Source of the DNA: Prorocentrum cordatum
Taxonomy: Eukaryota
Length of the DNA stretch: 64,000 nucleotides
Assembly: GCA_963575745.1 (NCBI GenBank)
Contig: CAUYUJ010000001.1
Span: 3,348,001-3,412,000, forward strand
Direction of reading: 5' to 3'
Shown here: positions 2,320 to 59,640 of the stretch, piece after piece
Numbering within the stretch: position 1 is the first letter of the stretch
Layout of the letters: the number at the start of each line of letters is the position of its first letter
Position numbers and translations under genes: made by a program
Notes under the pieces: generated by a model
Seen by the model: the letters and a program-made list of their open reading frames with translations, nothing else
Told to the model about the DNA's origin: nothing
The model's database searches: none

Positions 2320-3701
2320 TCAGAGCCAGAAGAGAGCAGAGTCGAAAACAATGTGCCCGTTGCCAGCCGCCGCCTCCTGTGCCGCCGACACCATGGCGGC
2401 AGGGCCGCATGCCTGCACGAAGATGGTGCCCAGGGCCCCCTCGCTCGGCTGGAGGGCTGCCAGGTCGGCCTCCGCCTCGGCGTAGACCTGCGGAAAGGAG
2501 GGCCTTCCCCTCACCAGCGGGGCCGACAGACTCGATTCGGAGGGCTCGTCGGCGCCAGCAGTCTCGATTGCGGTTGCGTGGAGAATTGCTGAGAACTTCG
2601 GGGAGCCGATCGGATACTCTGCCTGGAGACACTGCCCGATGCAATCATCGAGGACCTGGAAAAGCTCCAGGCTCCTGCCGATCCAGATCAGGCGCACCAG
2701 CTGCAGTGAAGCGGGCAACTCTTCCCGTACGGCCATCTGCGAGAGCGTGCGCAGGGTGCTGTGCACCTGTGTGATGCCGATGCCCCCACCGATGAGCAGA
2801 ACAGCTGCGTGGCCCGCTGGGTCAAACGTCGGCCCGTAGGCGCCGTCAAACTGCACGGTCAACGCTGCAGCATCCCCGTCGTGAACTAACTGGTATAGCT
2901 TGTCTGTGAAAGTGCCCTTCCCCATATTCTTGATGCACATCTTCGAAATGCCGTCATAGGGGGAGCTGGCTAATGAGAAGGGGTGCCACTCCCAAGTCGA
3001 GATCGCAGGAACGTTTACCCACGCAAATTGCCCAGGAAAGGGGTGCGCCCTGCTGATCTGGAGCTCTGTCACCCCACCCTCGGCCTCATAGGTTTTGGCC
3101 GAAAGGACGCACGCTGGTGACGTGATGCTCACGAAACGCACTCCCGCATCCACAAGGTAGAACACTATCCCACCAACCAAAAAATACCAAGAACTCTCAG
3201 CATGCAAAAGCGTTGCCGGAATCAGTATCAGGAAGAAGAAATGACAATATTTGAACAACTCCCACTGCTTGGACCTGATCAACGGCAGACCGCCAAATAT
3301 GAACAATGCGGGATAAGCTACAAGCATCTGAGTGCTGATTGTGAAATTGTCGTAGTCAGGCAGGCCTGGTACGGGCACTCCCTTTTTGTTGATGGGGTAG
3401 AACTGGTGGAGATGTATTGCGTCATATGGGAAGCTGTTCATCGAGGCGTAGCGGCAAAACATGGTCAAAATATGGAGAAGCATCATCACGAGGGCAGCGC
3501 CCCCAAGCCACTTGTGTGTCCACAAGCCCCGCTCCCAGGATATTCCGAGCGCCTTATGCCATAACGAATTCTTGCACGCTGGCAAGAGATTGAGGGCCAT
3601 GAAGAGTACGGCTGTCAATCCCCATGTACGGGCAATCCGTTCCAACCAATTTCCATCGATGGTCGGCTTTGCAGAATGGTATTGGTGGGATTGGAGCCAG
3701 T
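2320..3701 (-). CDS. Ferric reductase / NADPH oxidase-family flavocytochrome, exon 3 (heme-binding TM domain, FAD-binding and NAD(P)H-binding domains, stop)
   Basis: Paired heme His helices WTHKWLG..MLLHIL and FKYCHFFF..TLLHA; FAD motif PGQFAWV..WEWHPFSLASSP; DGAYG; NAD(P)H motif LLIGGGIGIT; C-terminal ACGPAAMV. AG acceptor at 3703-3702 on the minus strand. Confidence 0.92.
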
Positions 3702-4825
3702 CTGCCATCGTGACCCTTGCACGTGGAGGCATGGTCTAATGCCAACTGCTGCCTGGTAGGGTCGTGCAAGTCTTTGTCATGATCCCCCACCTCTTCCGGC
3801 GCCCAACTGCATGCCTCCCTCCCGAAGCTCCCTGAGTGGCTTTGGCGCCTCCAAGAGGATTTCCACGGATTCTAAAACGGCGCAAGCACACCACCAAGAC
3901 CGCCAAGGTGGCCCAAAACGCCTTCAACACGGCCCACGATCACCCACGACGGCCCGTCATGGCCTCATGACAGCCCAGTCGTGCCCCCCCCAATGCGGCC
4001 CAAGAGTACTGTAAGAGAAGCTCCACGCAACTTTTGGCTGCCTTTGGCGTTCTCGCTTTTTCGGGCTTTCCGTCAGCCCGATATGGCTTCAAAGGCTTCC
4101 AAAGTGGCCTCAAGACGGCCCAGAAAGCCCTAAGACGGCCCCACGGTGGCTCAGTCGGCCTCAAAAAAACAGCCCAAGAGACACCCAAAACGGATCTGAA
4201 AGGCCCCAAACAGTCCCCAATACGGGCCAGATATGCCCCCCCAACACGGACTCCAAAGGCGCCAGACGGCTCAAGAGCGCGCCCAGAGAGCGAGCTCAGA
4301 ACCCTCAAGACGCCCCGAGGTGGCATCCACGAGGCCCACATGAGGCTCGAATAAGGGAGGATGGGATAACACGACCAAAGATAATGACGAACAGGTCCTC
4401 CTCTTCCTCCTCCTCCTCCTCTGGCTCCTCCTCCTCGTCCTGGGGACGGCAACGTGTCACGTGTGACGGCCTTCTTCCTCCTCCTCCTCCTCCTCCTCCT
4501 CCTCCTCCTCCCCTACACCTCGTCCTCTTCAATCTCCTCCTCATCTTCCTCCTCCTCCTCATTCGCCCTGGTACGATGTTTATCCTTCTCCTCCTCCTCC
4601 TCCTCCTCCTCCTCCTTCTCCTCTTGCGGACGGCAAGTGCCACACGTGACGACCTTCTTCTTCTCCTCTCCCTCCTCCTCCTCGTCCTCCTCCTCCTCCT
4701 CCTCCTCCTCCTCCTCTTGCGGACAGCAAGTGTCACATGTGACGGCCTTCTGGGCGGTGCTCGAAAGGTTGCTACAGAGAGTGTCGCGCTGGAGCGATGG
4801 CGGGGCTTGCCGCAGGCAGTCAGAT
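3702..4825 (+). mobile_element. Non-autonomous Helentron-like element forming intron 2 of the reductase gene
   Basis: 5' (T)CTGCCATCG at 3701-3710 is complementary (8/9) to subterminal CGATGGCGG at 4795-4803, followed by hairpin TGCC-GCA-GGCA (4808-4818) and GTCAGAT. No TSD. Removal restores TGG TTC GTT TAC TGG. Confidence 0.75.
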
Positions 4826-6298: not shown

Positions 6299-7016
6299 TT
6301 CCCTCGCTCGTGTCACCACCGAGGAGGAGGATGAGGAGCAACACCAGCAACTGAGGAATCATATGGGGGACACATGACGGCCCCTGCTCATTTCGGCGCA
6401 CCAGCCCATAGGAGGCGCTACCGAAGGTCCCAATGGTACAAGGCGCGTAGCGCACCCCCCGCCCGTTTTGGCACACCCATCACACGTTTCGTGGCCCCGT
6501 GGAGAGCTCCACCTAAGGTCCCTGTGCCCAATTCGGCGCAGCCCTCACACGTTGCGTGGAGAGAGCCCCAAGAGGTCAAACTGGTAGGTTTTACGATGGT
6601 ATTTCGAAGGATTTTGCCCTTCTCGCATTTTCGGCTTTCCGACGCTCCAAGACTGCTCAAGAAGCTCCCACGATCGCCCCAAGGTAGCCCAAGACGCGTC
6701 CGAGAGGGCCCCAAGATGGCCCAAGAGAGCTCCAAGAATGCCCAAGCAGCGCTCCGAGAAGCCCTGAGAAGCCCCCAGGAGGCCCCAAGAGGCCGCCAAG
6801 AGGCCCCAAGAGGCCCCAAGAGGCGCTCAAGACGCGCCAAAGAAGCCTCCAAGAGGCTCAAAGATACCCCTCGAGGCCCGAAGAGGCTCTCAAGAAGCGC
6901 CCAAACCGCATCCAAAAGGCCCCCGAGAGGCTCCCCACGACACCCCAACACATATACAAGAGACCTCAGACCCACGACCCAAGCACGGTAGCGTGATGAG
7001 CCGAAAGCCACTAGGA

Positions 7017-8572
7017 TCCGCCGCCCCCTGTCGATTCATCGCAGGGGTGCCTGGCGTGCTAGATTATTTCGGTTTTGGTATTGGTTCTTTTTCCCCCCCC
7101 AAAAAAAACCCCTGGGGCTTCGGCCACCCAAAAGGCCCGGAATTCTTCTTTCATGTTTTCGCTCAATATGGCCCAAGATGGTCTCCAAGATGGCCACGTT
7201 GGCCCAAGATGGCCTCCAAGATGGTCCAGGATGGCCTCCAAGTCCGCCCAAGATGGTCCAAGACGGCCTCCCATACGGCCCAAGAGAGTCCAAGACGGCC
7301 GAAGACGGCCCAAGAGGGCCACCAGAGGCCTCCAAGACGGCCCAAGAGGCCTCCAAGAGGTCCTCCAGGAGGGCCCGAAGAGGCCAAAATCATTGATCTT
7401 CCTTAGGTTTTCGGAGGATTTTCGCATTCGCTTCTCCCCGGCTTTCCGACGACCCAAGACGGCCCCCAAGATCGCCCCCACAGCGCCCAAGAGGCCTCCA
7501 AAATGGCCTCAGGACTGCCCAAGAGGCACCCAATACGGCCCCAAGAGGGCACAAAGATGACTCATGCAAGAGGCCTCACAGACGCCCAAGATGGCCTCTA
7601 AGACGGCCCTGGAGCACCCCAAGGGGGCCCCAAGTCGGCCCAGAAAGGCCCCCCAAACGGCTTCCGACGGCGTCGGACGTGCCAGGAGCCCACCAAGACG
7701 GCCGAAGTTGGCTCGAAGTTGGCCCAAGACGGCCCAAGAGGCCTCCAAGAGGGCCTCCAGGAAGGCCAGACAATGCCAACAACACTCATTGTCCTAAAGT
7801 TTCCGACAATTTTTGACATTTGCTTCGTTTCGGCCTTCCGACGGCCCAATACGGCACAAGAGCCCCCAGCGATCGCCCAAGGATCGCCCAAGAGGCCTCC
7901 AAGATGGCCCCAGAACGGCCCAAGAGGCCCCCCAGACGGCCCCAAGAAGCCCCCAAGACGGCCCAAGAAACGTCTAAGACCCCCAAGACGGCCTCCAAGA
8001 CGGCCCTGGAGCATTCCAAGAGCGCCCCAAGTCGGCTCAGAGAGCCCCCCCAAACGGCTTCCGACGGCGTCGGACGGGCCAGGGGCACACCAAGACGGCC
8101 GAAGATGGCACTAAGATGGCCCAAGACGGCCCAAGAGGCCTCCAAGAGGGCCTCCAGGAAGGCCCGAAAAGGCAATAATCATTGATTTCCTGTGAGTTTT
8201 TGAAGGATTGTGGCATTTGCTTTTTTTCGGCCTTCCGACGGCCCGAGACGGCCCCAGTGCCCCCAAAGATCGCTCAGGAGGCCCCCAAGAGGCCCCCAAG
8301 ACGGCCGAAGAGGCCTCCAAGACGCTCAAGATGGCCTCCAAGACGGCCCAAGAGCCCTCCAAGACGTCCTCCAAGAAGGCCCGACAAGGTCAAAATGGCC
8401 TCCAGGCGGCCAAGATGACCTTCAAGATGCCCACGTGTTCCCCGACGGCTTTCCAAACCGATTCGGGGAACACATGGTCCGATAGCTTGGTAAGTCTGGC
8501 CTCAACGTTCGGCCACATAGGCGCTTCCACAAAGGCAGGGGGCGGCGGTGACTCGCCGTAGGCGTCTTCGAT
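7017..8572 (+). mobile_element. Helentron-like non-autonomous element, family A (internal GGCCCAAGA/GGCCTCCAAGA satellite)
   Basis: 5' TCCGCCGCCCCCTG; 13-bp complement CAGGGGGCGGCGG at 8536-8548; hairpin CGCC-GTA-GGCG; ends TCTTCGAT. Confidence 0.75.
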
Positions 8573-12540: not shown

Positions 12541-13270
12541 TCCCCTTTATCGCCACCCAAGTCGGCACAACCGTCACACGTTTCGTGGCCCCATAAGGAA
12601 CTCTACCGAAAGCCCAGTGCTACCGCCCGCGTGCGCCCTCGCCACCCATTTCGCCACACCACACGCTGTGGCCCTATGGGGGTCCCCGCCGGAAATCCAA
12701 CTGCCACCGCCCGCGTGCCTTCCCGCCACCAATTCCGGCATACCCATCACACGTTTCGGGGCTTCGTTGGGAACTATACCCGAAGTCCCACTGCCACCGC
12801 TCGCGGGCTATCCCGCCACCCATGTCGGCACACCCCTCACACGTTTCGTGGCCCCGTCGGGGTCTTCACCGAAAGTCCCATTGCCACCGCTTGCATGCGT
12901 CGCCGCCACCAAGTCCGGCATATCCATCACACGTTTCGTGGCCCCACAAAGGAACCCCACCAAAGGTCCGCGGCCACCGCCCGCATTCATCCCCGCTACC
13001 CATGTCGGCACACCGCTTACATGTTTCGTGGTCTCATAAGGAAGGTCCCATCGAATGTCCAAATGCCGCCGCCCGCGTGCGTCCCCGCCACCTGTTTTGG
13101 TACGCCGCTCACACGTTTCGTGGCCCCATAAAGAGCTCCACTAGAAGGTCCCCGTGGCGCCGCCCGCGTGCGCCCCCGCCACGGCACACCCCTCGCACAT
13201 GTCGTTGAAACTCTAAGGAACTCCACCGAAGGTCCCACTGCCACCGCCCGCATGCGCTCCCGCCACGCAG
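11783..13270 (+). mobile_element. Diverged family B element (head, CAT microsatellites, array)
   Basis: Degenerate head ctgtggtgctggatcatcgttttgaagagacagcg; array of cacgtttcgtggcccc units at 12560-13270. Confidence 0.55.
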
Positions 13271-13749: not shown

Positions 13750-16700
13750 GTACAAGAACAATATGCGACAGAACATGTGGCGGAAATGTGGCAGAAGTGT
13801 GACAATTTCCATGGACAATTCGTCGGTCTATCGTTTCGCCGGGCGTCCTGTGGTCCTCCTTCCGAAAAGGGCCCCTCTTCAGCGCAAGGCTCCCCCAGCC
13901 TGTGCACTCCTGCAGCTTTTGAAGGAGTCTGCTCTTGCGCTCCTCCTGCGCCTGCAGCCACGTTGAAATCCGAACCTCTCGTGCTAATTACTGCTCAGCG
14001 CGATACGTTGCTCGCTTGATCCAATCAGCGTAAAACTCGTCTGGCGCCCTGGCCGCGCCAACGATCTTTCTGAGCAATTTTCGCATGGCCACATTGGGCT
14101 TCTTACGGGGGGCCAGCGGCAGCGGAGCCGAAACACGTCCCAAGTGGCACGGGCGGGCTGAGCTGAGGGCAGTGGCCGCAGTGGCGGAGCGGGGGGGAGA
14201 TCCCCCGGCACACCAGTGGGAGGCGGCGCTGCCTGCGGCGGGGGCGCACCGCGCGTCCGCCAGGCAAGCTGGGGCTGCGGAGCAAGGGGCTGGGCGGCGG
14301 TAGCCCGAAGCTGCATGGCTACAAGGGTGGGGGCAGGGCGGCCACGATGCCCAGGCGGCAGCGCGCGGGTCAGCAGCAGCGGGGGGCACTCGCAGAACCA
14401 CCGGCGAGCGGGGAGGGCGGGGGGCAGCGGGGCCAGGCCCAGGACGGTGCACACATCGCGGCCGAGGGCAGGCGGCGCCGTGCTCAAGTGGGGGCAGGGC
14501 GAAGGCTCCTGGCAGCGAAGCTGCCGGGAAGCAAAATGGGGGTGCGGCGCCGGGGCGCAAGCACCCATGGCAGCCGGGTGCCCTCCTGCACACACCGCGG
14601 GCCAGTCGGCGCAAGGGCATGGCTGACCCTTGGGGCGCGCAGAGCCTGTGTCGGCGGCGTGTGCGCCAAGTGGGAGCCAGGCGGCAGCAGCTTCCTTGCA
14701 GGTGGAGGGAAGCGGCGCAGCCGAGCTCAGAGTGAAAGAGAAGCACCTAACAGGTGCACGAGCAACTGTGCCAGCAGCGGAGCCGCGAGAGGGTAGTGCC
14801 ACGGGGGAGATGCGCGCAACACCTGGGGTGGGTGGTACGCCCCAGGGGGGGGATAGGGGAAGGCGCGCCACCTGGGGTACATGGCGCGCCCCCCAACAGT
14901 GGAGGAAAAGGGACACCCACACGGTACACGCGCAAGTGGGCGCAAAGGCGCAAGCCAGGGCGGCCGGCCTGTCGTGGAGAGGAGGCGCGCCACCTGGGTT
15001 AGATGGCGCGCCCCAAAGAAGAGGAAGGAAGGGGGCGCGCCACCTGGGTTGGATGGCGCGCCGAACAAGAACAGCACCTGATTTCATTTCGGCACACCCT
15101 TCAGACGTTTCGTGGCCCCATGGGGAGCTACACCAAAAGGTCCGAGGGGCGCCGCCCGCGTGCGCCCCCGCCACTAATTTCGGTGCATCCCCGACGCGTT
15201 TTGTGACCCGATGGGGAGCTGCACTGAAGGTCCCCGTGGCGCCGCCCCCATGCGTCCACGCCACCCATTTCGGCACACCCGTCACACTTTCGAGGCCCCA
15301 TAGGGAGCTCCACGGATGATCCCCGTGGCGGTGTTCGCATGTGCCCCCCCCGATCCATTTCGGCTCCCCCTCACACGTTTCGTGTCCCGATAGGGAGCGC
15401 CACCGAAAACACTCACAACTGCAATACTCACAATTGCGTATGGTTGGGTCCTTCGCCGGGCTAATTGTGTCAGCGATCCGTTGCGATTTATTTGGGCAGC
15501 GCGCTGCGAAACAGACGCGCGAATTCGGTATCGAGGACTGCTTTGCCCCATGCGTCAGAGGTGGGCGAAAGATCGCGGAGCGGCGACACGGCTGCACGAA
15601 CTGAGCGGCTGCATGCGGACAAACGCCGCCATCGCACCTCATGGGAAGCGTGTTGCGCGAGGCGTGGTCCACGTCAAACTAGGCATGGTACATCACGAGG
15701 TCGATGTGGGCCGCTGTGGGGCAGCACTCTTGGCTGCGGGGGTGATCAGTGGCCATGAGGGCGACAAGGGTGGTGTGCCGCACGGGCTACAAGTGATCAG
15801 AAAAGCCTCTGACGTCAGCCGTAGCCGCGAATCACAGCACCAAAGCGCCTCGGCGGGAAACGTCTACACATAAATGTAAAGGTCATGCTCAGAAAACGCA
15901 AGACAACATCGGGCTGACTTGCGAAACGGCAGCTGTGCATCTTACAGAACAAAGCAATCGACCTGTGATTCCATGTTGTGCAAGCCTGAACCAAGGGTGC
16001 TCGTTCGTATGGCCAATCCGATGCAAATGGGCACGCTCCTGGGCACAATGCCGCCATCACTTCATTAGTACCTGTTCCCCCGGACTCAGACTCTTCGTGC
16101 AAATTTGCACGCTTACCGCACTACCTGCGGCCGGCCTCGCCCTTTTGCTCGCTGGCCCCCGCTACGCGCGAGCTCCTGCTCGATACGCCTTGCACGGCGC
16201 TAAGGCGGCATAGGCGGCGCGCGCCGCGCTGTCAGGAGGCTCTGCGACAGCCGCCCCCCGCCCCCCCCCCGAACTGAAGAACCCCGCCCCCGCGTCGGGC
16301 CCTCCCCGCGCCCTCCTCGGGGCCGATGTTCGCTGTGTGAAAACGGGTTCGCTAAAAGGGGCCCTCTTCTTCACCGCCCATGTAGGTCACCCCCATGACC
16401 GCCTGCCCGAGGGCAGCCTGGTCGTGCGATGTGTCCGGCAGCTTGTCTGCGAGGCAAGCGAAACAGCTCATTGGCATCGCGCCTCGCTGGACAGCAGGAT
16501 CTGCGATGACAGCTCCGTCAGTGCGCCCTCCGCCTGCTGGACCATGTCTTTGCCATCCTGGATCCTTGCAGTCCTTTCGTTGGCCCGTCTGCGCCGCGCC
16601 GCGTAGACCGTGACACGCTGCGGCAACACGCCGGTAAGGCTGCAAAGCCACCGAAGTTCGGCCGTGATGCGCATCTCAGCACAACGGTCCACGGTATTGC

Positions 16701-18027: not shown

Positions 18028-19841
18028 CCCAACCATCCTGTGGTGTTGGGTCCTCGTTTTGAAGAGTCGGTCCCCGCGTCTCCTCCGCCCCTCTTCCTCC
18101 TCCTCCTCCTCCTCCTCCTCCTCCTCCTCCCCCTCCCCCTCCTCCTCCTCCTCCTCCTCCTCCTCCTCCTCCTCCTCCTCCTCCTCCTCCATCGCCATTC
18201 TTTTTGCTTATCAATAACTTCTCCTTGCCGCACCCCGAGGCCAGTTTTTAGGGCGAACTGGGCGTTTCGCCTGAGACTTCCTCACCATTTATGACCCTGC
18301 AGCTTAACACAGGACGACCGTTTCGCAGGTGAAGGGCGAGTCGTTTTCAAAATGTGACTCTCGCCTTGGCGCCGCGCGCATTCGTTTTAAACATTTGCAA
18401 TCATTTCAAAGGTTGAGGGCGACTGGTTCCACATGTGCAAGGGTCTCACAGGTTCCCATGCTCAGCGTACCAGGAATTGTGTTTGGAAGGATTCAGGACT
18501 ATGAGGGTGGAACAGTTACATTGATTCGCGGTGTTGAAATCCCAGGAATGGCGTGCTGGCATGATTCAGGATCGTCAAGACGCCGCACTCACGTTGATCA
18601 GTGGCGTTGAAATCCCGAGAACAATGTTTTGGCATGCTTCAGGGTCTTCAAACGGCTGTCTTCCCACGATGCAATTCCCTCAGTGGAGATGGCCCGTTGT
18701 AGGGGCTTATGAGGAGGGAGCTTGTAGGGAGGGTTTATTCCAACATCGTTGATGGCTCTTGGGTTCACACTGGTCCTCCTCCTCCTCCTCCTCCTCTTCC
18801 GCCCTCCTCCCGTCTCCCCCTCACTTTGGCACCTCTTTCACACGTTTCGTGGCCCCGTATGGAGCTCCACCCACGGCCTCAGTGGCTGCGGTCGACTGCC
18901 GCCACCCCACACCTCGCACACGTTTCGTGGCCCCACAAGGGGCTAGGACCCAATGGCTGCGTTCGCATGCCGCCAACCCCCACTTCGGCACACCCCTCAC
19001 ACGTTTCGTGGCCCCATAGGGGCCTCCACCGAAGGCCACATTGGCTGCGATCGCATGCAGCCACCCCCTTCACTTTGGCACGCCCCGCACACGCTTCGTG
19101 GCCCCATAGGGACCTCCACCGAAGGCCCCAGTGGCTGCGCTCGTACGGTATGCCGCCACCCCCCTCACGTTGGCACACCCCTCACACTTACGTGGCCCCA
19201 CATGGTGCTCGACCGGAGCTCCAGTGGCGGTGTCTGCATTTCTTCCCCCATCGAGTACAGCGTTTCGTGGCCCCATAGGGAGCTCCACCAAAGGCCCCAG
19301 TGGCGGTGTCCGCTTGTTGCCCCACCCAGTGCAGAACTTCGTGGCCCCATAAAGAGATCCACCGAAGCCCCCAATGGCGGTGTCCGCGTGCTATTCCCCC
19401 ACCCAGTACAACGTTTCGTGGCCGCCCCATAGGGAGCTCCACCGAGGGTCTCAGTGGCGGTGTTCGCGTGCGTTCCCCCCACCACCCAGTACAGCGCTTC
19501 GTGGCCCAATACGGACCTCCACCGAAGGCCTCAGTCGCGGTGTTCGCATGCGTCTCCCCCGCCCAGCACAGCGCTTCGTGGCCCCATTGGGAGCTCCACC
19601 GAAGGCCCCATTGGCTGCGCACGCATGCGTCCCCGCACCATGTCGGCACACCCACCACACGTTTCGTGGTCCCATATGGAGCGCCACCGGAGGCCCCAAT
19701 GGCTGCGCCCGCATGCGTGCCCGCCCCCTAGCGGCACACCCTTTACACGCTTCGTGGTCCCATAAAGCGATCCACCGACGGCGATGCCCACACCAGCGAT
19801 ACCCACAAGTGCAGATGGTTGGGCTCTTCGCCAAGATAATT
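18028..19841 (+). mobile_element. Helentron-like element, family B (head - CCT microsatellite - 77-bp array - tail)
   Basis: 5' CCCAACCATC after a T run; perfect complement GATGGTTGGG at 19814-19823; hairpin TCTT-CGCC-AAGA; ends TAATT. Confidence 0.7.
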
Positions 19842-19998: not shown

Positions 19999-21064
19999 TC
20001 CCACCAGCCCTCTGGGCGTAGGTGGTTGAGGGAGTTTCCTCTTCCAACCTCCTTCGTCCCCTTCGGGGGGGGGGGTACCCCTCCCCCTACCCCCTCCCCT
20101 GGACCTGGACGGGGGGTTTCGCGACGCGTTGGAGCGTCCAAACGGCCTCGGCGAGGAAGCCAACATCATTGGGTTTACTAGGGTTTTGGCCCATTTTGGC
20201 CTCCTGAGGGGGGGAGGCAAATTTAGCCCCCCCCTCCTGTGATCGATCTCCTCCAAGATGGCCCCAAGGGGCGCCCAGGAGGCCCCAAGAGGCCCCGAGA
20301 TGGCCCCAAGATGGCCCCACGAAGCCCCCAAGAGGCCCCCAGGATGCCCCCCAGAGGCTCCCAAGAGACCCCCTGGAGGCCACCCAGAGGCACCCAAGAC
20401 GCTCCAAGAGGCCTCGGCGAGAATGCCACAATCATTGATTTTATTTAGGTTTTGGCCACATTTTGGCCTCCTGGGGCGGGGCACTGCTTCAGATGACTCC
20501 GAGAGCGCCTGGGGGAGCCCAAGATGACCTCCAAGATGGCTCAAAATATCCCAAGATGCCTCAAGATGGCTCCCACGATGTTCCAAGAGGCCCCAAGACC
20601 GCTCCAAGACGGCTCCAAGTGGCCAAAGAGCTCCCCGAGGAGGACCCGAAGAGGCCCCAATCCTTCCAACACCTTAGGACAATCAATGTTTTTGGCTTTC
20701 TCGCCTTTTCGCTTCCGATGGCCATCCGAGGCTTCAAGATGTCTCCAAGAAGGCCCAAGACGGCTCCACGAGCGCTCCAAAGGATCCCAAGAGCGCTTCA
20801 AGAGGGCCCCAAGAGGCTCCCAGGAGGCCCCAGTAGGCCCCAACTGGCGCCCAAGAGGCCTCCGATATGCTCCCAAGAGACCCCCAAGAGGCCCCACGCA
20901 ACTCTCCGAGGCACCCAAGACGCTCTAAGAGGCGTCCGGGATCGCCAAGAGGCCCCCAAGGCGCTCCAAGAAGTCTCCACTGGGGGACCCTTCCTCTGCG
21001 TGCTGCCCACTTCCCTGATCGAGGCAATTCCTCTGGGTATCGTTTCTGGATGGGCGTCTAGAAT
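19999..21064 (+). mobile_element. Helentron-like element, family C
   Basis: 5' TCCCACCAGCCCT shared with 43921. The 3' end atcgtttctggatgggcgtctagaatt matches 45733-45778 with the inverted repeat deleted. Confidence 0.55.
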
Positions 21065-21611
21065 TACTTCGTGGTGTACGTCCGAGCTGCAACAATGAAG
21101 AATGCTCTGGCCTCGCCTACCCGTGCGGATCCCACATGCCTTCTTTCACACTTCCCCCGATCAATGGCCTTTGACGCCCGCAAACACTCTGATCGCTCCT
21201 CTTTCTCCTTCTCCTCCTTTGGAGGCTCTGTGCTGATTTCGCGCCCGGTGGCGCGGGCCCCTTTCACGCGAACGCGCGCAAGTTGGGAGCCTTGAAGGTG
21301 GCGCCGTTCGAAGTAAGCCCCCCTACCTGTGAAGCAGCAGCACCAGACGTAACCCGTGGTGGAGCGAGTGCGCATGGGGCATGACAATCCGATGTCGATG
21401 CAAGCGGTGATGAAGAAGGGACGCCAACAGAGTAGGTCAGTGAAAAGGGGGGGGGCCTGGCGGGAACGGGACAACGGGAGGGAGAGGAGATGGGGAGCGG
21501 AACGTGAGGCAGAAGGTGGGGACGGGGAAGGGTGGGGAGAATAACGTCGGTGGAGGTACGGGAAGGGGGCGGGAGAGGGAAATCCAAGTGTAGATCGGGA
21601 CGGGAGAATTA

Positions 21612-21786
21612 CAGTCGGGGCGGTGACCTAAGGAACCCTAACTAAGGAACGAGGCCCCGTTTTTCCATGACTTAAACTTCGATCCCCTTCGAACACCCAA
21701 GGAAAACGCGGGGCAAACTGTGAAACTATGAAGGAACGCGGAGCCCCTACCCAACGAAAAGGGTTCCTTCTTCAGGGCCCCGACTG
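21612..21786. mobile_element. 175-bp Tc1/mariner-type MITE
   Basis: TIR CAGTCGGGGC..AAGGAACCC at both ends, flanked by TA at 21610-21611 and 21787-21788. Confidence 0.85.
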
Positions 21787-22599: not shown

Positions 22600-22730
22600 C
22601 CATCGCTCGGACGTCCATTCCCTGTGCTTTTTCCGGTTTCGTGCGTGGATTTTTCGCCAAATGATCAAGGATGCTCCTCGATGGTCCTCGCCGTTGGAAA
22701 AATGCACACGCCCTAGCGCTGCCAAGGAGC
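22600..22730 (+). repeat. Dispersed repeat, second copy at ~33651-33780
   Basis: ccatcgctcggacgtcca..ttccggtttcgtgcgtgg..ggatgctcctc is shared by both. Confidence 0.85.
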
Positions 22731-23122
22731 ACGGTCCCTGGGAGCAGCTTGAGCGGGTTTCGGGAGGCGTGGGGCCAGCTGGAGAGGCCCACATGCGATT
22801 GTCGCACGTCACCTCTTCGGTACTCGAAGTACCCAGAAGAGGCTCCTCCTCCTCCTCCTCCTCCTCCTCCTCCTCCTCCTCCTCCCCATTGGTTTCCTCG
22901 TGGTCCTCAAGAGAAGCCCCAGGACCCCGAGAGGCCCCCAAGAGGCCTCCTCTTTCACCTCCTTCCCTGAGTGTCCTCCCCCAAATGGGGTTCCACCGCG
23001 TCGTTCCAACAGGCAGCGGGCGGCGGTGGATCACCGAAGGCGTCTTCGACCTGTGTGGAATGGTCCAAATCGTGTAGAATTCGGAGCGCCAGACACCCTG
23101 GAACATGAAGGGACAACAAGGC

Positions 23123-23760
23123 TTAAAACGCCAACGGCGAGTCGCCGCCACCCGCTCCCCTGCCGTTCTAGAAACGCCGATGTGGCCAAACGCTGGACCA
23201 AAGCTTGGCCAAGCGATTGGACGATGTGTTCCCCCAGCCGTTGTGGAAACCCTTCGGTGAATACCTGGGAAAGAAATTGAGAGGAGGATGAGAAGGAGGA
23301 GAAGGAGAAGGAGAAGGAGGAGGAGGAGGAGGAGGAGGAGGCGGAGGACTAGCATGAGAAAGAACAGGAGGCCTCTGAAGGCAGCATCGTGGCTTTCTGG
23401 GGCCTTCCAGGGAGCCTCTTGGGGGCCTGTGATTGCCTCTTGGGGGCCCCTGGAGGCCTCAGACGGACCTCTTGGCCTTCGGAGGCCGTCTTAGGGGCCT
23501 CTATGGGCAGTCGTGGGTCCCTCTTTGGGCGCTTTAGGGCCATCCTTGATGCCTATGGGGCTATCTTGAGGGCGTCTTGGGATTCTCTTGGATCGTCTTG
23601 CAGGCCCCTTGGGCTTCTTGGGGGCTTCTTGGGAAATCTTGGGGCGATCTTGGGGGACTACGGGGCTGTCTTGGAGCGTCGGAAGCCCCCAAGGGAGACA
23701 ACGCTAAACTCAATACATGGTCTTAGAGACATCCATGATTTTGGCGTCCCGGAAGTCCTT
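23123..23760 (-). mobile_element. Diverged family A element, reverse orientation (5' boundary uncertain)
   Basis: The reverse complement of the 3' module (gtggcggcgactcgccgttggcgtttt) lies at about 23123-23270, followed by microsatellite and satellite body. Confidence 0.55.
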
Positions 23761-24059
23761 TGAATCACTCTCGGGGCGTGTTTCTCATCAAATAATCTTT
23801 CACATATGAGTCCCAAGTCAACCCCAAAAAGCTCTCGGGAGAAGGAAAGAAGAGAACGTAATACGGACGAAGGAGGTGGGGGGGAGGGACGAAAGGGGAG
23901 GAAAGAAATGACAGGCAGGGGGGAAGGATAATGAACGCACAGGACTGCTGCCAACAGCAGCGGGAAGCCCCCCAGATCGGCGGCACTGGCCGGAGTCCAA
24001 CTCAATTCGTAGAGAACTGGTCCTTTGTTCTCCGTAATTTGCCCTTGCAGCCGTCAAGC

Positions 24060-26855: not shown

Positions 26856-26908
<53 letters not shown>

Positions 26909-29017: not shown

Positions 29018-30005
29018 CCGCCGCCCCCAATTGTCTTGCCACAGGGGTGCTCCGCGTGCTAGACGTCTGGTGGCTTTGGGGTCTTTTAGAACTCCCACGG
29101 AGGCTTCGCCACAACGCGCCGGCCACCCTGAAGGCCGCGTTAGCCGCGCAATCCGCTGAACAATTGTGTCAAATCGCCTCCGCGACGGCCAAGATGGCCT
29201 CCAAGATGCTTTCAAGACGGCTAAGATAGCCCCAAGAGAACCCCAGATGGTCCCAAGATACACCCAAGACGGCCCAAGATGCAGCCAAGATGGCCCAAAA
29301 TGGGCCAAGACGGCCAAAGAGGCCCCCAAGAAACCTCCAGGACAATCCAATAGGCCTCCAAGAGGTCCTCCAGGAAGACCCGGAGAGGCCCAAAGCAGGA
29401 TTTTCCTATGGTTTTTCACAGTTTCTGCTTCAAAACGGCCTTCCGACGGTCCAGAAGGCCCCCAAGATCGCCCCCATTGCGCCCCAGAGGCCTCAAAGAT
29501 GTCCCCAGGACGGCCAAAGATGCTTCTAAGACGGCCCTCAAAGGGCCCCAAGACGGCCCAAGAGGCCTCGAAGACGGCCAAGTTGGCATTCAAGACGCCC
29601 CTAAAGCGCCCCAAGAAGGCCCAGAGAAGCTCTCAAGATGGCTTCCGACGGCGCAGACGGGCCAGGAACGCCGTAAGACGGCCAAAGAGGCCCGCAAGAA
29701 ACCCCCAAAGGCCCCCAAGAGGCCCAAGGATGCCCCCAGGAGGCCTTCAAGAGGCCCCCAGGAAGCCCCCAGGAGGCCGCAATAATGAACCAAGAAGCTC
29801 CCACGAGGTCTCCTCATCTTTCTCCTCATCCTCCTTTCCCATCCCTATCCTTATCCTCCTCTTCCTCCCCCACGTGTAGGGCTTCCACAATGGCTAGAGG
29901 AACGCATGGTCCAATTGCGTCTCCAAGTTTGTCCCACATGTTTGGCCACGTAGGCGTATCCCAAATGGTAGGGGGCGGCGTTGACTCGCAGTCGGCGTCC
30001 TCGAT
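29017..30005 (+). mobile_element. Helentron-like element, family A, head-to-tail with the previous copy
   Basis: Starts TCCGCCGCCCCC at the shared T 29017 and has a diverged 3' module ending GGGGGCGGCG..CGCAGTCGGCGTCCTCGAT. Confidence 0.68.
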
Positions 30006-43920: not shown

Positions 43921-45778
43921 TCCCACCAGCCCTTCGGGGCGTAAGGTGGTCTAGAGCGTTTCCTCTTCCAACCACCTTGTTCCCCTTCGGTGAGGGGTTT
44001 CTCACTGTCCCCTGTTAATGTACACCCCCTCCCCCAGGCGACCAGCGGCCAACCAGGAACCATGCATGCACCCCCCGCCACCCATGTCAAAGATCAATGC
44101 AACACGCGCTCTGCCTCCACATTTGTAGCATGCGCGGCCAACCCGATGCGCCCCCCACCACCATCCCTGCCAAACAACAGCACAACGTACACTTTGGGGC
44201 AAAATCTTGGGTCATGTTCGTCAGGCCCGCGAGCACGTTGTATTGTTTTTGACAATGACAGCGGGGGTGTCAGCATATTGTCTGCTGCGCGCAAGGCTAC
44301 TATCCCTAAGAAAAAACCATACAACATGCACCTCGCGGCTAAATCTGGATGATGCGCGGCCACCCCGCGATCACTGTCAAGCGGTTTTGCACAAGGTCGG
44401 CGGGGGTGGTGGCGCATGGCCTGCTGTGCGCAGGCCCACCCGACACAATGATGGGCATTTCTGTTCGACAAGGGTGGTGGGGGCCGACATGTTTCCCGAT
44501 GTGTGCTGTCACGTGCGCAGGTGCACCTGACACACACTGCGCGTGCCCCGAACGTGGCGCACCTGGCGCGGCTGGAGTATGCGGCACACCCAGCGCACGC
44601 GGAGCACGTGGCGCATCTGGCGCAGCAGACGTGCCTGGCACGCTCGGACCCCAGGGGTTCCTGGAGCGCGTGGCGCGCCTGGCACGCGTGACGCACCGCG
44701 CCCCAGCGTCCCGCACATGGGCTCGGCTCTGGCTCCCAGTAGCTGTTCATCCAAAGACGACCGCTGCACATGCAGAGGCTCGGGCGTTACTGATGTGTTG
44801 GGAGGGCGGGTGGGAGTGAGCTAGACGGCTTGTTATCTAGGAGGGTGTATTGATCTTTCCCCTACCCCCCTTCTTGGACCTGACCGGCCGCGAGCGGTCA
44901 GAACGTCCAAGATGGCCCAAGACGGCTCCAAGAGGGCCTCTGAGAGCCCAAGATGACCTCCAAGATGGCTCAAGATAGCCCGAGATGCCTCACGATGGCT
45001 TCCAAGATGCTCTTAGAGGATCCAATTAGGTTCCAAGACTGCTCCAAGAGGCCTCCAAGACATCCAATGAGGCCTCCAAGAGGCCCAAAACCTTCCCAAA
45101 CCTAGGGAAAACCAATGATTTTTGTCTTCTCGCCTTTTCGCTGCCGATTTGCCATCCGAGGCCTCGACATTGCTCCAAGATGGCCCAAGAGGGGCCCAAG
45201 AGGGGCCCAGGAGAGCCTCAAGACGGCCCCAAGAGCGCCCAAGAGCGCTCCAAGAGCGCTCCAAGAGACCATGTTTGGGGCCCCCGAGTGGCAACAGTAA
45301 TTGGGGAACCCATCTTTTTGGATCGATGTCCTCCAAGATGGCCCCAAGAGGCTCCCAAGAGGCCCCCAGGAGGCCCCCAAGAGGACTCCACGCTGCCCCA
45401 AGAGTCCCCCCCGAGGCACCCAAGACGCCCAAGAGCCCCCCAGGACCGCCAAGAGACCCCCAAGACGTCCCAAGAGGCCACCAAGAAGCGCCCAAGAGAT
45501 ATCCCAAGAGGTTGCGAGAGGCATCCAAGAGACCTCTGGCCCTTTTGCTTGCCATCCTCCTCCTGCTCCTCTTTCCTCCTTCTACTCCTTCTCTTCCTCC
45601 TCCTCATCCTGTTCATCTTCCTTCTCCCCACTCCCTCATCCATTTCCTCCTTCTCCTCCTCCCTCCTTCGCACGGTTCGGCCGTCCCCCTTTTTGCTCTC
45701 CCGCACTCCCTGATCACCTCAACTCGCCTGGACATCGTTTCTGGATGGGCTGTTGGGGCCACGCGACGCGTCTCGAAT
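43921..45778 (+). mobile_element. Helentron-like element, family C, carrying an internal insert (~44000-44840)
   Basis: 5' TCCCACCAGCCC; subterminal GGGCTGTTGGGG at 45747-45758; hairpin ACGC-GAC-GCGT; ends CTCGAAT. Confidence 0.55.
44185..44470 (+). pseudogene. DIRS/Ngaro-type RNase H relic (second copy at ~46292-46577)
   Basis: RCIVFDNDSGGVSILSAARKA..N.HLAAK / (frameshift) WMMRGHPAITVKRFCTRSAGVVAHG resembles FxDN..ALxKG..IW..RVxSxxNxADGxSR. Confidence 0.4.
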
Positions 45779-45906
45779 TTTTACATTGCCTTGCACCCAG
45801 AACACACACATTCATACATTCATTCATACATACATACATACATACATACATGCATACATCCATACATACAGTCACTCATGCGTACACATACACAAGTGCA
45901 CACATA

Positions 45907-57349: not shown

Positions 57350-59640
57350 GACCAAGACGGCTCCAAGGCCCCCGAAGATGGGTGCACGACGGCCCAAGAG
57401 GGCCCAAAGATGCCCCAAGAGCGCTCCAGGAGACCTCCCGAGAGAGAGCCTCAAGAGGCCAAAATCGTAGAGTCGACGAAGGTTTCTGAAGGATGTTGGC
57501 CTTCTCGCATGTTCTGCTTTCCGACGCTTCAAGGCGGCTCAAGATGCTCCCCAGACCGCCCCAAGACAGCCCAAGGCGCCTCCAAGATGGCCCCGAGACG
57601 GCCCAAGAGGGCTCCAAGATGGCCCAAGAAGCGCTCAAGACGGCCCAGGAGGGGCCCAAGCAGGGGACCACGAACCGAACATGTGCTTTCTCGCCTCTTC
57701 TTCTTTGCTTCTTTTGACATTTGCTTCTTTTCGGCCTTCCGACGGCCCGAGACTGCCCAAGAGCCCCCAAAGATCGCCCCAAGATCTTTCAAGAGGCCTC
57801 CAAGATGGCCCAACAACGGCCCAAGAGGCCCCCAAGACGGCCCAAGAGGCCTCTAAGACGCCCTAGATGGCCTCCAAGACGGCCCTGGAGCATTCCAAGA
57901 GGGCCGCCCCAAGTCGGCTCAGAGAGGCCCCCCAAACGGTTTCCGACGGCGGCAGACGGGCCAGGAGCCCACCACGACGGCCGAAGATGGCCCTAAGATG
58001 GCCCCTCCAGGAAGGCCCGAAACGGCCAAAATCATTAATGTGTCACGAATTTTTGAAGGGACGGTCCGAGATGGCCCAAGAGCACCCAAAGATCACCCAA
58101 GAGGTCTCCAGTATGGCCCCAGAACGGCCCAAGAGGCCCCCAAGACGGCCCCAAGAGGCCCCCAAGACGGCCCAAGAGGCCTCCAAGACGCCCAAGATGG
58201 CCTCCAAGACGGCCCTGGGGCACCCCAAGAGAGCCACGAGACGACCCGGAGAGGCCCCCAAGACGGCTTCTGACGGCGTCAGACGGGCCAGGAGCCCACC
58301 AAGACTGCCAAAGAGGCCCCGAGAAGCCCCCAAAGGTCCAAGAGGTTCCCAGGAAGCTCCCACGAGGCCCCAACAGTGTCCCCAGATGCTCCCAAGATGC
58401 CCCTCCTCCTCCTCCTCCTCCTTCTTCTCCACCTCCTCCTCCGCCTCCTCCTGATCTTCCCCGCCATCCTCCCCCAAGTGTTCCCCGAAGGGTTTCCACA
58501 AAGGTTGGGGGAACACATGGCCCGATACCTTGGCAGAGCTTTTGCCACAACGCTCGGCCACATGGGCGATTCTAGAAGGCGCGGGGCGGCGGTGATTCGC
58601 CGTAGGCGACTTCGATCCGCCGCCCCCTGTTGATTTATCACAAAGGTGCCTGGCGAACTGAATCCTTTCGCTTTTGGTTTGTTTTTCCAAAAAAGAACTC
58701 CCCATGGGGCTTCGGCCCGTCCCGCCGGCCACCCGGAAGGGTGCACAAAAGGTGGTTGCAAACGGTTTTTCGACATCAGACGGCTCCAAGATGGCCTCCA
58801 AGATGGCCTCCAAGCTCGCCCAAGATGGTCCAAGATGGCCTCGAAGACGGCCCACGAGAGTCAAGGATGCCTCCAAGTTCGCATAAGAAACACCTAATAT
58901 TGCCCAAGACGGCCCCAGAGGCCTACAAGAGGCCTCCAAGACGGCCCACGCGGCCTCCAAGAGGTCCTCCACGAGGGCCCGAAGAGGGCTAAATTATTGG
59001 TTGTCCTTAGCTATTTGAAGGATTCTGGCGTTTGCTAATTTCCAGCCGTCGACGGCCCCCGTCGGCTCAAGAGCGCCGAAAGATCGGCCCCAGAGCGCCC
59101 AAGAAGCCTCCACGATGGCCCTATGACGGCCCACGAGGACTCCAAGACGGTCCCAAGAGGGCCCCAAGACGACCCAAGAGGGCTCCAGGACGCCCAAGAT
59201 GGCTTCCAAGACGGCCCTGGAGCACCCCAAAAGGGCCCCAAGTCGGCCCAGAGAGACCCCCTAGACAGCTTCCGACGGCGTCAGACGGCCCAAGAGTCCC
59301 CCAAGATCGCCCAAGAGGCCTCCAATGTGGCCCCAAAACGGCCCAAGAGGCCCCGAAGACGGCCCCCAAGACTGCCCTTGGGCCCTGGAGCATTATAAGA
59401 GGGCCCGAAATTGGCCCAGAGAGGCCCCCCAAACGGCTTCCGACGGCGTCGGACGGGCCAGGAGCCCACCAAGACGGCCGAAGATTGCCATAAGAAAACC
59501 CAAGTCGGCCCAAGAGGCCTCCAAGAGGGCCTCCAGGAAGGCCCGAAGAGGCCAAAATCACTAATTTCCCAAAAGTGTTTGAAGGATTGTCGCATTTGCT
59601 TTTTCGGCCTTCCGAGAGCCACTACCAATGTACAAAAGGG
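57350..59640 (+). mobile_element. Two family A elements joined head-to-tail at 58616 (outer boundaries approximate)
   Basis: 3' module ...GGGGCGGCGGTGATTCGCCGTAGGCGACTTCGA runs directly into TCCGCCGCCCCCTG, with the same internal satellite on both sides. Confidence 0.65.

What the first reader, a model, noticed from the sequence alone, without database searches (positions are those of the whole stretch)
7017..8572. Family A: satellite-filled elements bounded by 13-bp asymmetric inverted repeats and a GTA-triloop hairpin
The dominant GGCCCAAGA/GGCCTCCAAGA 'satellite' is not free-standing. It is enclosed by 5' TCCGCCGCCCCCTG and a conserved ~140-bp 3' module ending CAGGGGGCGGCGG-TGA(C/T)T-CGCC-GTA-GGCG-TCTTCGAT (also at 28085-29017, 29017-30005, around 58616 and reversed at 23123). 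Asymmetric TIRs, a 3' hairpin, internal tandem repeats and no TSD are hallmarks of Helentron/Helitron2 non-autonomous elements (HINE/DINE-1). The assignment is inferred, because no Rep/helicase is encoded in this window.
Basis: partly seen in the sequence, partly recalled or inferred. Interest (0 to 1): 0.78.

Follow-up and report, generated by a model that had tools for sequence, protein, structure and literature searches.

The report
Helitron2-like satellite-carrying elements in a dinoflagellate
This is a real, very abundant family of small non-coding mobile elements in a dinoflagellate genome whose ends look like those of rolling-circle (Helitron2/Helentron-type) transposons, and which carry and spread the genome's commonest short satellite repeat.

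Summary
Window 7017-8572 is one complete copy (1556 bp) of a repeat family. It has a 13-bp 5' inverted repeat and a matching repeat 24 bp inside the 3' end. A 4-bp/GTA-triloop hairpin and an 8-nt tail (TCTTCGAT) follow that repeat. Two more complete copies lie at 28085-29017 and 29018-30005, with partial copies at 58616, 23050 and 23125.

An exact-pattern scan of metagenome contigs found 11 further loci. There the same roughly 45-bp terminus closes elements with unrelated interiors and abuts different flanks. Variant termini keep the layout through compensatory changes.

Every structural criterion published for Helitron2 (Bao & Jurka 2013) is met, and most of those for DINE-1/HINE. The TT/T-run target of Helentrons is not met.

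No Rep-helicase is encoded in the window, no empty site could be examined, and the genome itself was not available. Membership is therefore structural only.

One unexpected feature: each of the 10 5' ends seen, plus one degenerate 5' remnant, directly follows another element's hairpin-plus-tail terminus. About half of the 3' ends instead abut other DNA.

Whole-genome reads cover the 3' module about 900-fold, against roughly 0-3-fold on non-repeat bins.

Verdict: a new member of a known kind, of moderate interest.

The parts
7017..7030 (+). 5' terminus of copy A1: T followed by the 13-bp 5' asymmetric terminal inverted repeat (ATIR) CCGCCGCCCCCTG
7019..7056 (+). 5' hairpin that uses the whole 5' ATIR (CCGCC..CCCCTG pairs with CAGGGG..GGCG); apical stem differs between copies
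   Evidence: -13.2 kcal/mol; 0 of 200 dinucleotide shuffles and 1 of 200 mononucleotide shuffles as stable; same topology in 9 of 10 5' ends
7160..8400 (+). Internal 10-11 bp satellite (GGCCCAAGA / GGCCTCCAAGA) interrupted by AT-richer spacers; 397-bp higher-order unit x2.5 at 7302-8306
8400..8572 (+). Conserved 3' module (95% identical to 28844-29017; 82% to 58473-58616)
8431..8477 (+). Palindrome inside the 3' module (GTGTTCCCCGA ... TCGGGGAACAC)
   Evidence: -16.3 kcal/mol, z -5.4, 0 of 200 shuffles
8536..8548 (+). 3' ATIR CAGGGGGCGGCGG, 24 bp inside the 3' end
8554..8564 (+). 3' mini-hairpin CGCC-GTA-GGCG
8565..8572 (+). 3' tail TCTTCGAT; the element ends here (+/- 1 nt)
   Evidence: paralogue comparisons stop here; X3 contigs diverge at the equivalent base 29017
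6983..7016 (+). Degenerate variant 3' terminus of an upstream, 5'-truncated satellite element, directly abutting A1
   Evidence: intact version in L010
28085..29017 (+). Complete copy A2 (933 bp), preceded by a variant 3' terminus at 28052-28084
29018..30005 (+). Complete, older copy A3 (988 bp), head-to-tail behind A2
58473..58616 (+). 3' module of a copy whose 5' module is missing
58617..59615 (+). Copy with an intact 5' module, head-to-tail behind the previous one, cut off at about 59615 by unrelated DNA
22995..23050 (+). Diverged 3' terminus (ends TCTTCGAC)
23125..23269 (-). Diverged 3' module on the minus strand, followed at about 23034-23102 by a degenerate 5' module
43922..45785 (+). 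Element of a second family (B) with the same layout but different, mutually complementary ATIRs (5' CCCACCAGCCC, 3' GGGCTGTTGGG) and an ACGC-GAC-GCGT mini-hairpin

Best explanation
Family A is a high-copy family of non-autonomous, satellite-carrying DNA transposons of the Helitron2/Helentron (HINE, DINE-1-like) structural type in a dinoflagellate genome.

Shown here:
- Discrete units of 828-1556 bp in one fixed orientation.
- A 13-bp 5' ATIR folded into a 5' hairpin.
- A complementary 3' ATIR 24 bp from the end.
- A C(GNA)G-type mini-hairpin and a 7-8 nt tail, with a sharp 3' boundary.
- Only these termini are shared between elements with unrelated interiors.

Inferred:
- The elements are moved in trans by a Rep-helicase (HUH Y2) transposase encoded elsewhere in the genome.
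- The enzyme nicks the + strand at the A|T step in front of CCGCC and unwinds 5' to 3'. It terminates 7-8 nt past the mini-hairpin and joins the ends into a single-stranded circle.
- In that circle, as in genomic head-to-tail junctions, the two ATIRs pair into a 13-bp stem. The stem presents the mini-hairpin and an unpaired AT at its base.
- Re-insertion occurs at an A|T step, with a strong preference for the 3' junction of a resident element. This would build head-to-tail chains of unlike elements.
- Slippage or unequal exchange of the internal satellite and its 397-bp unit changes element length. Transposition seeds the satellite across the genome, including introns.
For: Termini are far above chance: 8 matches against 0.43 expected, and 5 against 0.01.

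Six of 6 complete elements have the 5' ATIR upstream of the 3' ATIR on the same strand. These are A1, A2, A3, L010, L011 and L007, and they measure 828-1556 bp.

An exact scan of metagenome contigs for the 24-nt 3' ATIR-plus-hairpin found 11 loci.
- In L003, L006/L007 and L011 the interior is unrelated to the window's copies, and only about 45 terminal bp are shared.
- L005 and L008 are 94.5% identical over 1025 nt, and the similarity ends exactly at the 3' end.
- L006 and L007 are 98.6% identical, with similarity ending within 3 nt of the 3' end.
- In run X3, 11 contigs diverge from one another right after 29017.

3' mini-hairpin:
- 59 of 64 pair cells in 16 termini are canonical, against 13-28 of 64 when the partner is slid by 1-3 nt.
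- 0 of 2000 column shuffles reached 59.
- Three of 4 pairs change on both sides, across CGCC/GGCG, GGCC/GGCC, GCGC/GCGC and ACGC/GCGT.

5' hairpin: 9 of 10 5' ends give the same topology while the apical stems differ.

Junctions fold into an ATIR stem enclosing the mini-hairpin, with z -3.4 to -4.2 and 0-1 of 200 shuffles as stable, in 4 of 4 correctly specified junctions.

A second family, B, has different ATIRs that are again complementary to each other.

WGS reads (X8) reach about 3200 summed depth over 27843-29176 and 913 at base 28919, against 0-3 in non-repeat bins.

Literature:
- The layout equals the published Helitron2 definition (passages of PMC3627910) and the DINE-1/HINE description (passages of PMC4067079).
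- A Helitron2-like RepHel element has been reported in the dinoflagellate Symbiodinium microadriaticum (passages of PMC8788227).
- Adjacent and tandem Helitron insertions are documented (PMC4067079; PMC5148889).
Against: - No Rep, helicase or any transposase domain was found in 92 of 92 stop-to-stop ORFs of 200 aa or more. The only significant Pfam hits were ferric-reductase domains.
- The host genome is not held, so no autonomous partner could be sought.
- No empty site was seen.
- No 5' end was ever seen next to non-element DNA. The 5' boundary therefore rests on where families stop being alike, not on host flanks.
- Three of the 4 independently ascertained 5' ends (7017, 28085, L010) follow the same variant family. 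They could descend from one composite rather than from three insertions.
- The base after the 3' end is A or C in 8 of 8 non-tandem cases, and there are no T runs. This is unlike the TT/T-rich target of Helentrons.
- L009/L002 join a B-type 5' end to an A-type 3' end, so strict ATIR complementarity is not always kept.
- Folded alone, the 3' terminus does not stand out (z -0.64). Its minimum-energy fold pairs CGCC with the ATIR instead of forming the triloop hairpin.
Confidence: 0.66

Rival explanations
1. Cassette-like elements moved by a different, hairpin-directed, site-specific enzyme. Candidates are a single-tyrosine HUH transposase of the IS200/IS605 or Replitron kind, or a tyrosine recombinase acting on the folded junction. 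Such an enzyme would insert each unit precisely behind the hairpin-plus-tail of a resident unit, as integron cassettes are added at attC/attI.
For: All 10 A-type 5' ends seen directly follow a hairpin-plus-tail terminus of the same or another family; a degenerate 5' remnant on the minus strand does too. The 10 are 4 in the window and L003, L004/L005, L007, L010 and L011 twice. 3' ends are free to abut other DNA. Arrays hold unlike units in one orientation. The junction is a long imperfect palindrome with a conserved inner hairpin. No helicase gene has been tied to the family.
Against: The end architecture matches the Helitron2 definition point by point. Replitrons have short direct terminal repeats (passages of PMC10288648), which are absent here. 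No eukaryotic IS200/IS605 transposase or integron-like system is known (my recollection, not searched). Family B 5' ends follow ordinary-looking DNA ending in AT in 4 of 5 cases. This argues for a simple A|T target plus a preference, not an obligatory hairpin site.
Confidence: 0.12
2. Not currently or ever mobile as single units. Instead, a composite long repeat whose conserved core is the 3' module plus 5' module junction, amplified by tandem and segmental duplication and then broken up.
For: 5' modules are never seen without a 3' terminus in front. L007 is a head-to-tail tandem of two 98% identical units. The window contains a 2.1-kb segmental duplication.
Against: At least 8 different sequences follow the same 3' end at the same base. 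Elements with unrelated interiors share only the termini. Hairpins covary. Depth is hundreds- to thousands-fold, and copies appear in contigs of several metagenome data sets.
Confidence: 0.1
3. A MITE of a cut-and-paste (DDE) transposon with 13-bp TIRs.
For: There is a 13-bp perfect inverted repeat near both ends.
Against: The 3' repeat is 24 bp inside the end defined by paralogue comparison. No direct repeat flanks A1, A2+A3 or the L010 copy. Orientation in arrays is uniform.
Confidence: 0.03
4. The conserved 3' module is a protein-coding exon on the minus strand. It reads through as about 56-60 residues starting IEDAYGESPPPP, and the 'element' would be a gene family.
For: The frame is open in A1 and A2. 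X3 contigs, probably RNA, cover the module. There were 21 hits in 1.84 billion representatives.
Against: The hits are short ORFs (61-234 aa) that run on into the translated satellite. The one long hit (705 aa) is an unrelated repeat protein. Copies differ by 1-2 nt indels that break the frame. The six ORFs of 200 aa or more that overlap the element copies, on either strand, had no Pfam domain.
Confidence: 0.02

Closest known systems
Helitron2 elements (Bao & Jurka 2013; e.g. non-autonomous Helitron-1N1_CRe of Chlamydomonas; FoHeli of Fusarium)
   Same: Short ATIRs. The 5' ATIR lies at the very end and folds into a 5' hairpin. The 3' ATIR lies 20-30 bp from the end, directly before a 3' hairpin. 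A T is present at the 5' junction. 3' ends outnumber 5' ends. Tandem and adjacent copies occur.
   Different: The host is a dinoflagellate. The interior is filled with a 10-11 bp satellite. The target looks like A|T behind a resident 3' terminus, rather than TTTT|T/C (Chlamydomonas) or TNAT|A (Fusarium). The transposase is not identified.
Helentron-associated interspersed elements (HINE / DINE-1; oyster Cg170 carriers)
   Same: 13-bp subterminal inverted repeats, a nested inverted repeat at the 5' end, a short 3' stem-loop, central tandem repeats making up half or more of the element, very high copy number, and dispersal of satellite-like arrays.
   Different: No TT target and no variable T runs at the ends. 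No evidence of an endonuclease-bearing RepHel.
Helitron2-like RepHel element of Symbiodinium microadriaticum (Heringer & Kuhn 2021)
   Same: It shows that the Helitron2/Helentron lineage exists in dinoflagellates (passages only).
   Different: That report concerns one autonomous protein-coding element. Its termini were not available to me, so no sequence link to Family A was tested.
Canonical Helitrons (Helitron1)
   Same: If the junction T is counted as the first base, the element starts TC and sits between A and T. A 3' hairpin lies a few bp from the end, and no TSD is seen.
   Different: ATIRs and a 5' hairpin are present. The 3' end is ...TCGA, TGGA or TCAA, not CTRR.
Replitrons
   Same: Eukaryotic HUH-type, orientation-specific elements with a possible right-end hairpin.
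   Different: Replitrons carry short direct terminal repeats. Family A has inverted ones.

Membership tests
Helitron2 | [quoted passage not shown] | tested here: met
   13-bp CCGCCGCCCCCTG / CAGGGGGCGGCGG, perfect in A1, A2 and the 58616 junction and in 9 loci.
Helitron2 | 5' ATIR 0-2 bp from the 5' end, forming a 5' hairpin with downstream bases | tested here: met
   The ATIR starts 0-1 bp from the junction. In 9 of 10 5' ends the ATIR is paired in the minimum-energy fold, with apical stems that differ between copies.
Helitron2 | 3' ATIR about 20-30 bp from the 3' end, immediately upstream of a hairpin | tested here: met
   24 bp from the end, with a 5-nt spacer before the hairpin. The 3' end is fixed by L005 vs L008 and L006 vs L007.
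Helitron2 | 3' terminal hairpin | tested here: met
   59 of 64 pair cells are canonical, 3 of 4 pairs covary, and 0 of 2000 shuffles reached this value. Folded alone the terminus is not exceptional. In the junction context the hairpin is part of the minimum-energy fold.
Helitron2 | No target-site duplication; orientation-specific insertion at a fixed short target | tested here: inconclusive
   No flanking direct repeat at A1, A2+A3 or L010. An A precedes the junction T in all 10 A-type and all 5 B-type 5' ends. No empty site was available, and all A-type 5' flanks are other elements.
Helitron2 | Autonomous partner with the same termini encoding Rep-helicase without an endonuclease domain | not testable with these tools
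   No genome is held. None of 92 ORFs of 200 aa or more has such a domain.
Helentron / HINE (DINE-1-like) | 13-bp subTIRs, a nested 5' inverted repeat, a 3' stem-loop and central tandem repeats | tested here: met
   compared with passages of PMC4067079.
Helentron / HINE (DINE-1-like) | Insertion in TT with variable runs of T at the boundaries | tested here: not met
   3' ends read ...GAT or ...GAC followed by A or C in 8 of 8 non-tandem cases. There are no T runs at either end.
Helentron / HINE (DINE-1-like) | Partner RepHel with a C-terminal AP endonuclease | not testable with these tools
   Same limits as for the Helitron2 autonomous partner.
Canonical Helitron (Helitron1) | 5' TC, 3' CTRR, a single 3' hairpin, no terminal inverted repeats | tested here: not met
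   ATIRs and a 5' hairpin are present. The 3' ends are TCGA, TGGA, GGGA or TCAA.
Replitron | Short direct repeats at or near both termini | tested here: not met
   The termini are inverted, not direct. The definition comes from passages of PMC10288648.
TIR (DDE) transposon / MITE | Inverted repeats at both extreme ends plus a fixed-length TSD | tested here: not met
   The 3' repeat is 24 bp internal and no TSD is seen.
Plain tandem satellite / higher-order repeat | Units only ever adjacent to like units | tested here: not met
   The same 3' end abuts at least 8 unrelated sequences. Neighbouring units in arrays belong to different families.

The most novel reading that the evidence does not exclude
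The rule that every A-type 5' end sits exactly behind another element's hairpin-plus-tail may reflect an obligatory, structure-directed target. In that reading the transposase re-uses a resident 3' terminus (hairpin plus A|T) as its integration site. The elements would then accumulate as ordered, same-orientation cassette arrays, a eukaryotic analogue of integron or IS200/IS605-style hairpin-guided insertion. The enzyme could be something other than a classical RepHel.
Probability: 0.15. Interest if true: 0.8.

Novelty: new member of a known kind. Interest (0 to 1): 0.45.

Why it matters
Dinoflagellate genomes are huge and repeat-rich, and most of their repeats are unclassified.

I found no paper describing non-autonomous Helitron2/Helentron-type elements in dinoflagellates. 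The Prorocentrum cordatum genome paper has no occurrence of 'Helitron' in its main text, and neither does the 2024 dinoflagellate genomics review. Supplements were not read.

If the reading is right, four things follow:
- One transposon type with perhaps 10^3 copies explains how the commonest 10-11 bp satellite is scattered through the genome, including into an 8-kb intron.
- The conserved roughly 45-bp terminus gives annotators a signature for masking and classifying these repeats.
- The co-varying ATIRs and GNA-type mini-hairpins across families add natural mutational evidence for which end structures matter in Helitron2 transposition.
- The head-to-tail chaining is a testable target-site rule.

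Tried and rejected
- Whole-genome search with both termini: not possible, because no genome is held.
- Earlier notes of this scan: none by place, sequence or words.
- Scans of prokaryote genome contigs (4 loci) and viral contigs (1 locus) with a 5' end pattern. Both gave only chance matches in GC-rich bacteria and one viral contig. These match the profiles no further than the pattern itself, with E 0.011 to 0.7.
- Rfam at gathering thresholds and ARAGORN on the whole window: 0 hits each, so there is no tRNA- or snRNA-derived head.
- Coding hypothesis for the 3' module: rejected.
- MAFFT alignment of the 25-nt termini shifted three sequences by one base. I therefore counted pairs by fixed position in a script instead of using count of structure pairs.
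- The fifth fold (L010) was given on the wrong strand and is ignored.
- Read laying showed only the best-supported loose ends, nearly all inside the satellite. The planned genome-wide count of reads crossing versus leaving the 29017 junction could not be read off. Only the X3 row at 29017 was usable.
- Runs X1 and X2 hold only 0.08 and 0.05 of the sampled words. They were used for depth only, not for habitat or strain.
Full report
**Host and setting**

The window is about 60% G+C and packed with tandem repeats. Its one clear gene is a ferric-reductase/NADPH-oxidase-like ORF at 2320-3735 on the minus strand (Pfam). Its best relative, at 77% identity, is a protein labelled Prorocentrum cordatum / Polarella glacialis, followed by marine eukaryote transcriptome entries. 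The window is therefore from a dinoflagellate, probably a Prorocentrum-like one. The published P. cordatum genome is 59.7% G+C and 4.15 Gb (passages of PMC10666404). No whole genome is held for the window.

**The observation**

The sequence reads exactly as described:
- T+CCGCCGCCCCCTG at 7017-7030.
- An interior of the 10-11 bp GGCCCAAGA / GGCCTCCAAGA satellite broken by AT-richer spacers. Within it, 7302-8306 forms 2.5 copies of a 397-bp higher-order unit.
- A conserved 3' module ending CAGGGGGCGGCGG-TGACT-CGCC-GTA-GGCG-TCTTCGAT at 8572.

The 13-mer occurs 8 times with up to 1 mismatch, against 0.43 expected. The hairpin plus tail occurs 5 times, against 0.01 expected.

BLAST and nhmmer profiles give:
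- Six canonical 3' termini, ending at 8572, 29017, 30005, 58616, 23050 (+) and 23125 (-).
- Four 5' modules, starting at 7018, 28086, 29018 and 58617.
- One degenerate 5' remnant behind the minus-strand copy.

The complete copies are A1 (7017-8572, 1556 bp), A2 (28085-29017, 933 bp) and A3 (29018-30005, 988 bp). A1 and A2 are 95% identical in the 3' module and about 78% elsewhere. A1 is longer by extra copies of the 397-bp unit.

**Copies from elsewhere**

An exact scan of metagenome contigs for the 24-nt 3' ATIR plus hairpin returned 11 loci. Pairwise comparison groups them:
- L002 and L009 are one locus (99.3% identical).
- L004 overlaps L005 by 103 identical bases.
- L005 and L008 are paralogues, 94.5% identical over 1025 nt. 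Their similarity ends exactly at ...TCTTCGAT. After it, L005 runs into CCGCCGCCCCCTG and L008 into unrelated DNA.
- L006 and L007 behave the same way (98.6% identical).
- L003, L006/L007 and L011 have interiors unrelated to the window's copies. They share only about the last 45 bp.

Run X3 adds independent support: 11 contigs follow the 3' module up to base 29017 and then diverge from one another.

The 3' boundary is therefore firm to +/- 1 nt. Only the ends are conserved between families, which is the signature of sequences recognised by a shared transposition machinery.

Complete elements in L010 (947 bp), L011 (828 bp) and L007 (unit 1084 bp) have the same end-to-end orientation as A1-A3. 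That makes 6 of 6. L007 is a genomic tandem of two 98% identical units, not an assembly circle.

**End structures**

*5' end.* The 5' ATIR is paired with the downstream CAGGGG...GGCG in 9 of 10 5' ends, while the apical stem differs from copy to copy. Examples of the apical stem are TCGAT/ATCG, C/G, TGGCT/AGCCA and TTGAT/ATCA.

*3' mini-hairpin.* It is kept through compensatory change in variant termini:
- CGCC-GTA-GGCG in the canonical family.
- GGCC-GAA-GGCC in L010, with degenerate copies in front of 7017 and 28085.
- GCGC-GGA-GCGC in L011.
- ACGC-GAA/GAC-GCGT in family B.

Over 16 termini, 59 of 64 pair cells are canonical, against 13-28 of 64 with slid partners. None of 2000 column shuffles reached 59. 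The closing pair is C-G in 13 of 16, and the loops are mostly G-N-A. Such triloops are, as I recall and did not check here, unusually stable in DNA.

*Folding.* Folded alone, the 3' terminus is unremarkable (z -0.64). An alternative pairing of CGCC with the ATIR competes with the hairpin. In head-to-tail junctions, the two ATIRs form a 13-bp stem around the mini-hairpin and leave AT unpaired at its base. The z-scores are -3.4 to -4.2 in 4 of 4 correctly specified junctions.

*Other structures.* A further palindrome sits in the 3' module (8431-8477, z -5.4).

*Family B.* A second family has other ATIRs that are again complementary to each other: 5' CCCACCAGCCC and 3' GGGCTGGTGGG. It occurs at window 43922-45785 and as a complete copy in L001. 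One locus, L009/L002, combines a B-type 5' end with an A-type 3' end. This exception is recorded here.

**Comparison with known families**

The layout is the published definition of Helitron2 (passages of PMC3627910):
- ATIRs of 8-15 bp.
- The 5' ATIR 0-2 bp from the end, forming a 5' hairpin.
- The 3' ATIR 20-30 bp from the end, just before a hairpin.
- A T at the 5' end.

It also equals the DINE-1/HINE description: 13-bp subTIRs, a nested 5' inverted repeat, a 3' stem-loop and central tandem repeats (passages of PMC4067079).

The TT/T-run target of Helentrons is not seen. 3' ends read GAT or GAC and are followed by A or C in 8 of 8 non-tandem cases. An A precedes the junction T at all 15 5' ends examined, 10 A-type and 5 B-type. 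The element may therefore be read as 5'-TCC...CGA-3' sitting in A|T.

Replitrons have direct terminal repeats and MITEs have terminal TIRs plus a TSD. Neither fits.

A Helitron2-like RepHel element has been reported in Symbiodinium microadriaticum (passages of PMC8788227), so the lineage exists in dinoflagellates.

No transposase domain is present in this window, in 92 of 92 ORFs of 200 aa or more. I could not search the genome, so membership is structural only.

**The unexpected feature**

Each of the 10 A-type 5' ends seen directly follows a hairpin-plus-tail terminus. The degenerate remnant behind the minus-strand copy does too.
- The window contributes 7017, 28085, 29018 and 58617.
- The loci contribute L003, L004/L005, L007, L010 and two in L011.
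- The upstream terminus is often of another family.

Four of these were ascertained independently of the search pattern: 7017, 28085, L010 and L011-286. Three of those four follow the same variant family and may share ancestry.

By contrast, of 15 distinct canonical 3' ends:
- 7 are followed by an A-type 5' end (one of them degenerate).
- 1 is followed by a B-type 5' end.
- 7 are followed by other DNA.

The leftmost units of arrays lack a 5' module. This recalls the 3' over-abundance and one-ended copies described for Chlamydomonas Helitron2.

The simplest reading is a strong insertion preference for the A|T step at a resident 3' terminus. Adjacent and tandem Helitrons are known. An obligatory structure-directed target, or propagation of composites, cannot be excluded.

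**Abundance and context**

In WGS reads of run X8 (about 1.9 Gb read), summed depth is about 3200 over 27843-29176 and 913 at base 28919 in the 3' module. Non-repeat bins show 0-3. This suggests hundreds to thousands of copies at 85% identity or more. The satellite inflates the bin values.

X3 contigs, probably RNA, join 22285 to 30312. The skipped 8026 nt start CT and end AC, which is a GT-AG intron of a minus-strand gene. A2, A3 and the 23050 and 23125 copies lie inside that intron, antisense or sense.

**Rejected reading**

The 3' module is open on the minus strand. However, the 21 database hits are short ORFs running into translated satellite, and copies differ by frame-breaking indels. 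It is not a protein-coding exon.

**Verdict**

This is a real, abundant, non-autonomous element family of the Helitron2/HINE structural type in a dinoflagellate. It is a new member of a known kind, with an interesting head-to-tail insertion rule that deserves a genome-wide test.

Noticed in passing
window 20000-20980, 26813, 43922-45785, 47843-47880; L001 (element orientation 296-1298): A second element family (B) has the same end layout but different, mutually complementary ATIRs (5' CCCACCAGCCC, 3' GGGCTGKTGGG) and an ACGC-GAM-GCGT mini-hairpin. It also carries the GGCCCAAGA satellite. L009/L002 join a B-type 5' end to an A-type 3' end.
   Followed up: partly
window 22286-30311 (minus strand): Contigs of run X3 join 22285 to 30312 across 8026 nt that begin CT and end AC on the + strand. 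This is a GT-AG intron of an expressed minus-strand gene. The intron is filled with Family A copies and a 77-90 bp satellite. A second joint, 21325 to 22182, has non-canonical ends.
   Followed up: partly
window 12551-13266, 15085-15407, 18908-19782, 24907-26229: A 77-90 bp tandem repeat family (unit contains CGTGGCCCCATAGGGAGCTCCACCGAAGGCCCC) reaches a depth of about 2000 in WGS reads of X8 over 18505-19838. It is as abundant as Family A.
   Followed up: no
window 2320-3735 (-): An intron-free ORF of 471 aa carries the Ferric_reduct, FAD_binding_8 and NAD_binding_6 domains. It is 77% identical to a protein labelled Prorocentrum cordatum / Polarella glacialis, and it is the only recognisable protein domain set in the window.
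   Followed up: partly
window 44804-45800 and 46911-47900: A segmental duplication with an offset of about 2.1 kb includes the family-B 3' terminus and its downstream flank. (CATA)n-type microsatellites follow both copies.
   Followed up: no
window 41268-43298: A purine-rich 100-bp tandem repeat (about 16 copies, 86% matches; 299-bp higher-order period at 92%) produces the strong GC and AT skew of 42-44 kb.
   Followed up: no
window 16250-16271 and 27082-27099: X8 reads show reciprocal joints between these two places (skips of about 10.8 kb and returns, 109-216 reads per strand, sides of only 20 nt). This is probably a short repeat shared by the two sites, but it was not examined.
   Followed up: no
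L011 (element orientation 1-240): The element upstream of the 5' end at 286 carries a 7-bp CAGAGAC microsatellite instead of the GGCCCAAGA satellite. It still ends in a GCGC-GGA-GCGC hairpin plus tail.
   Followed up: no
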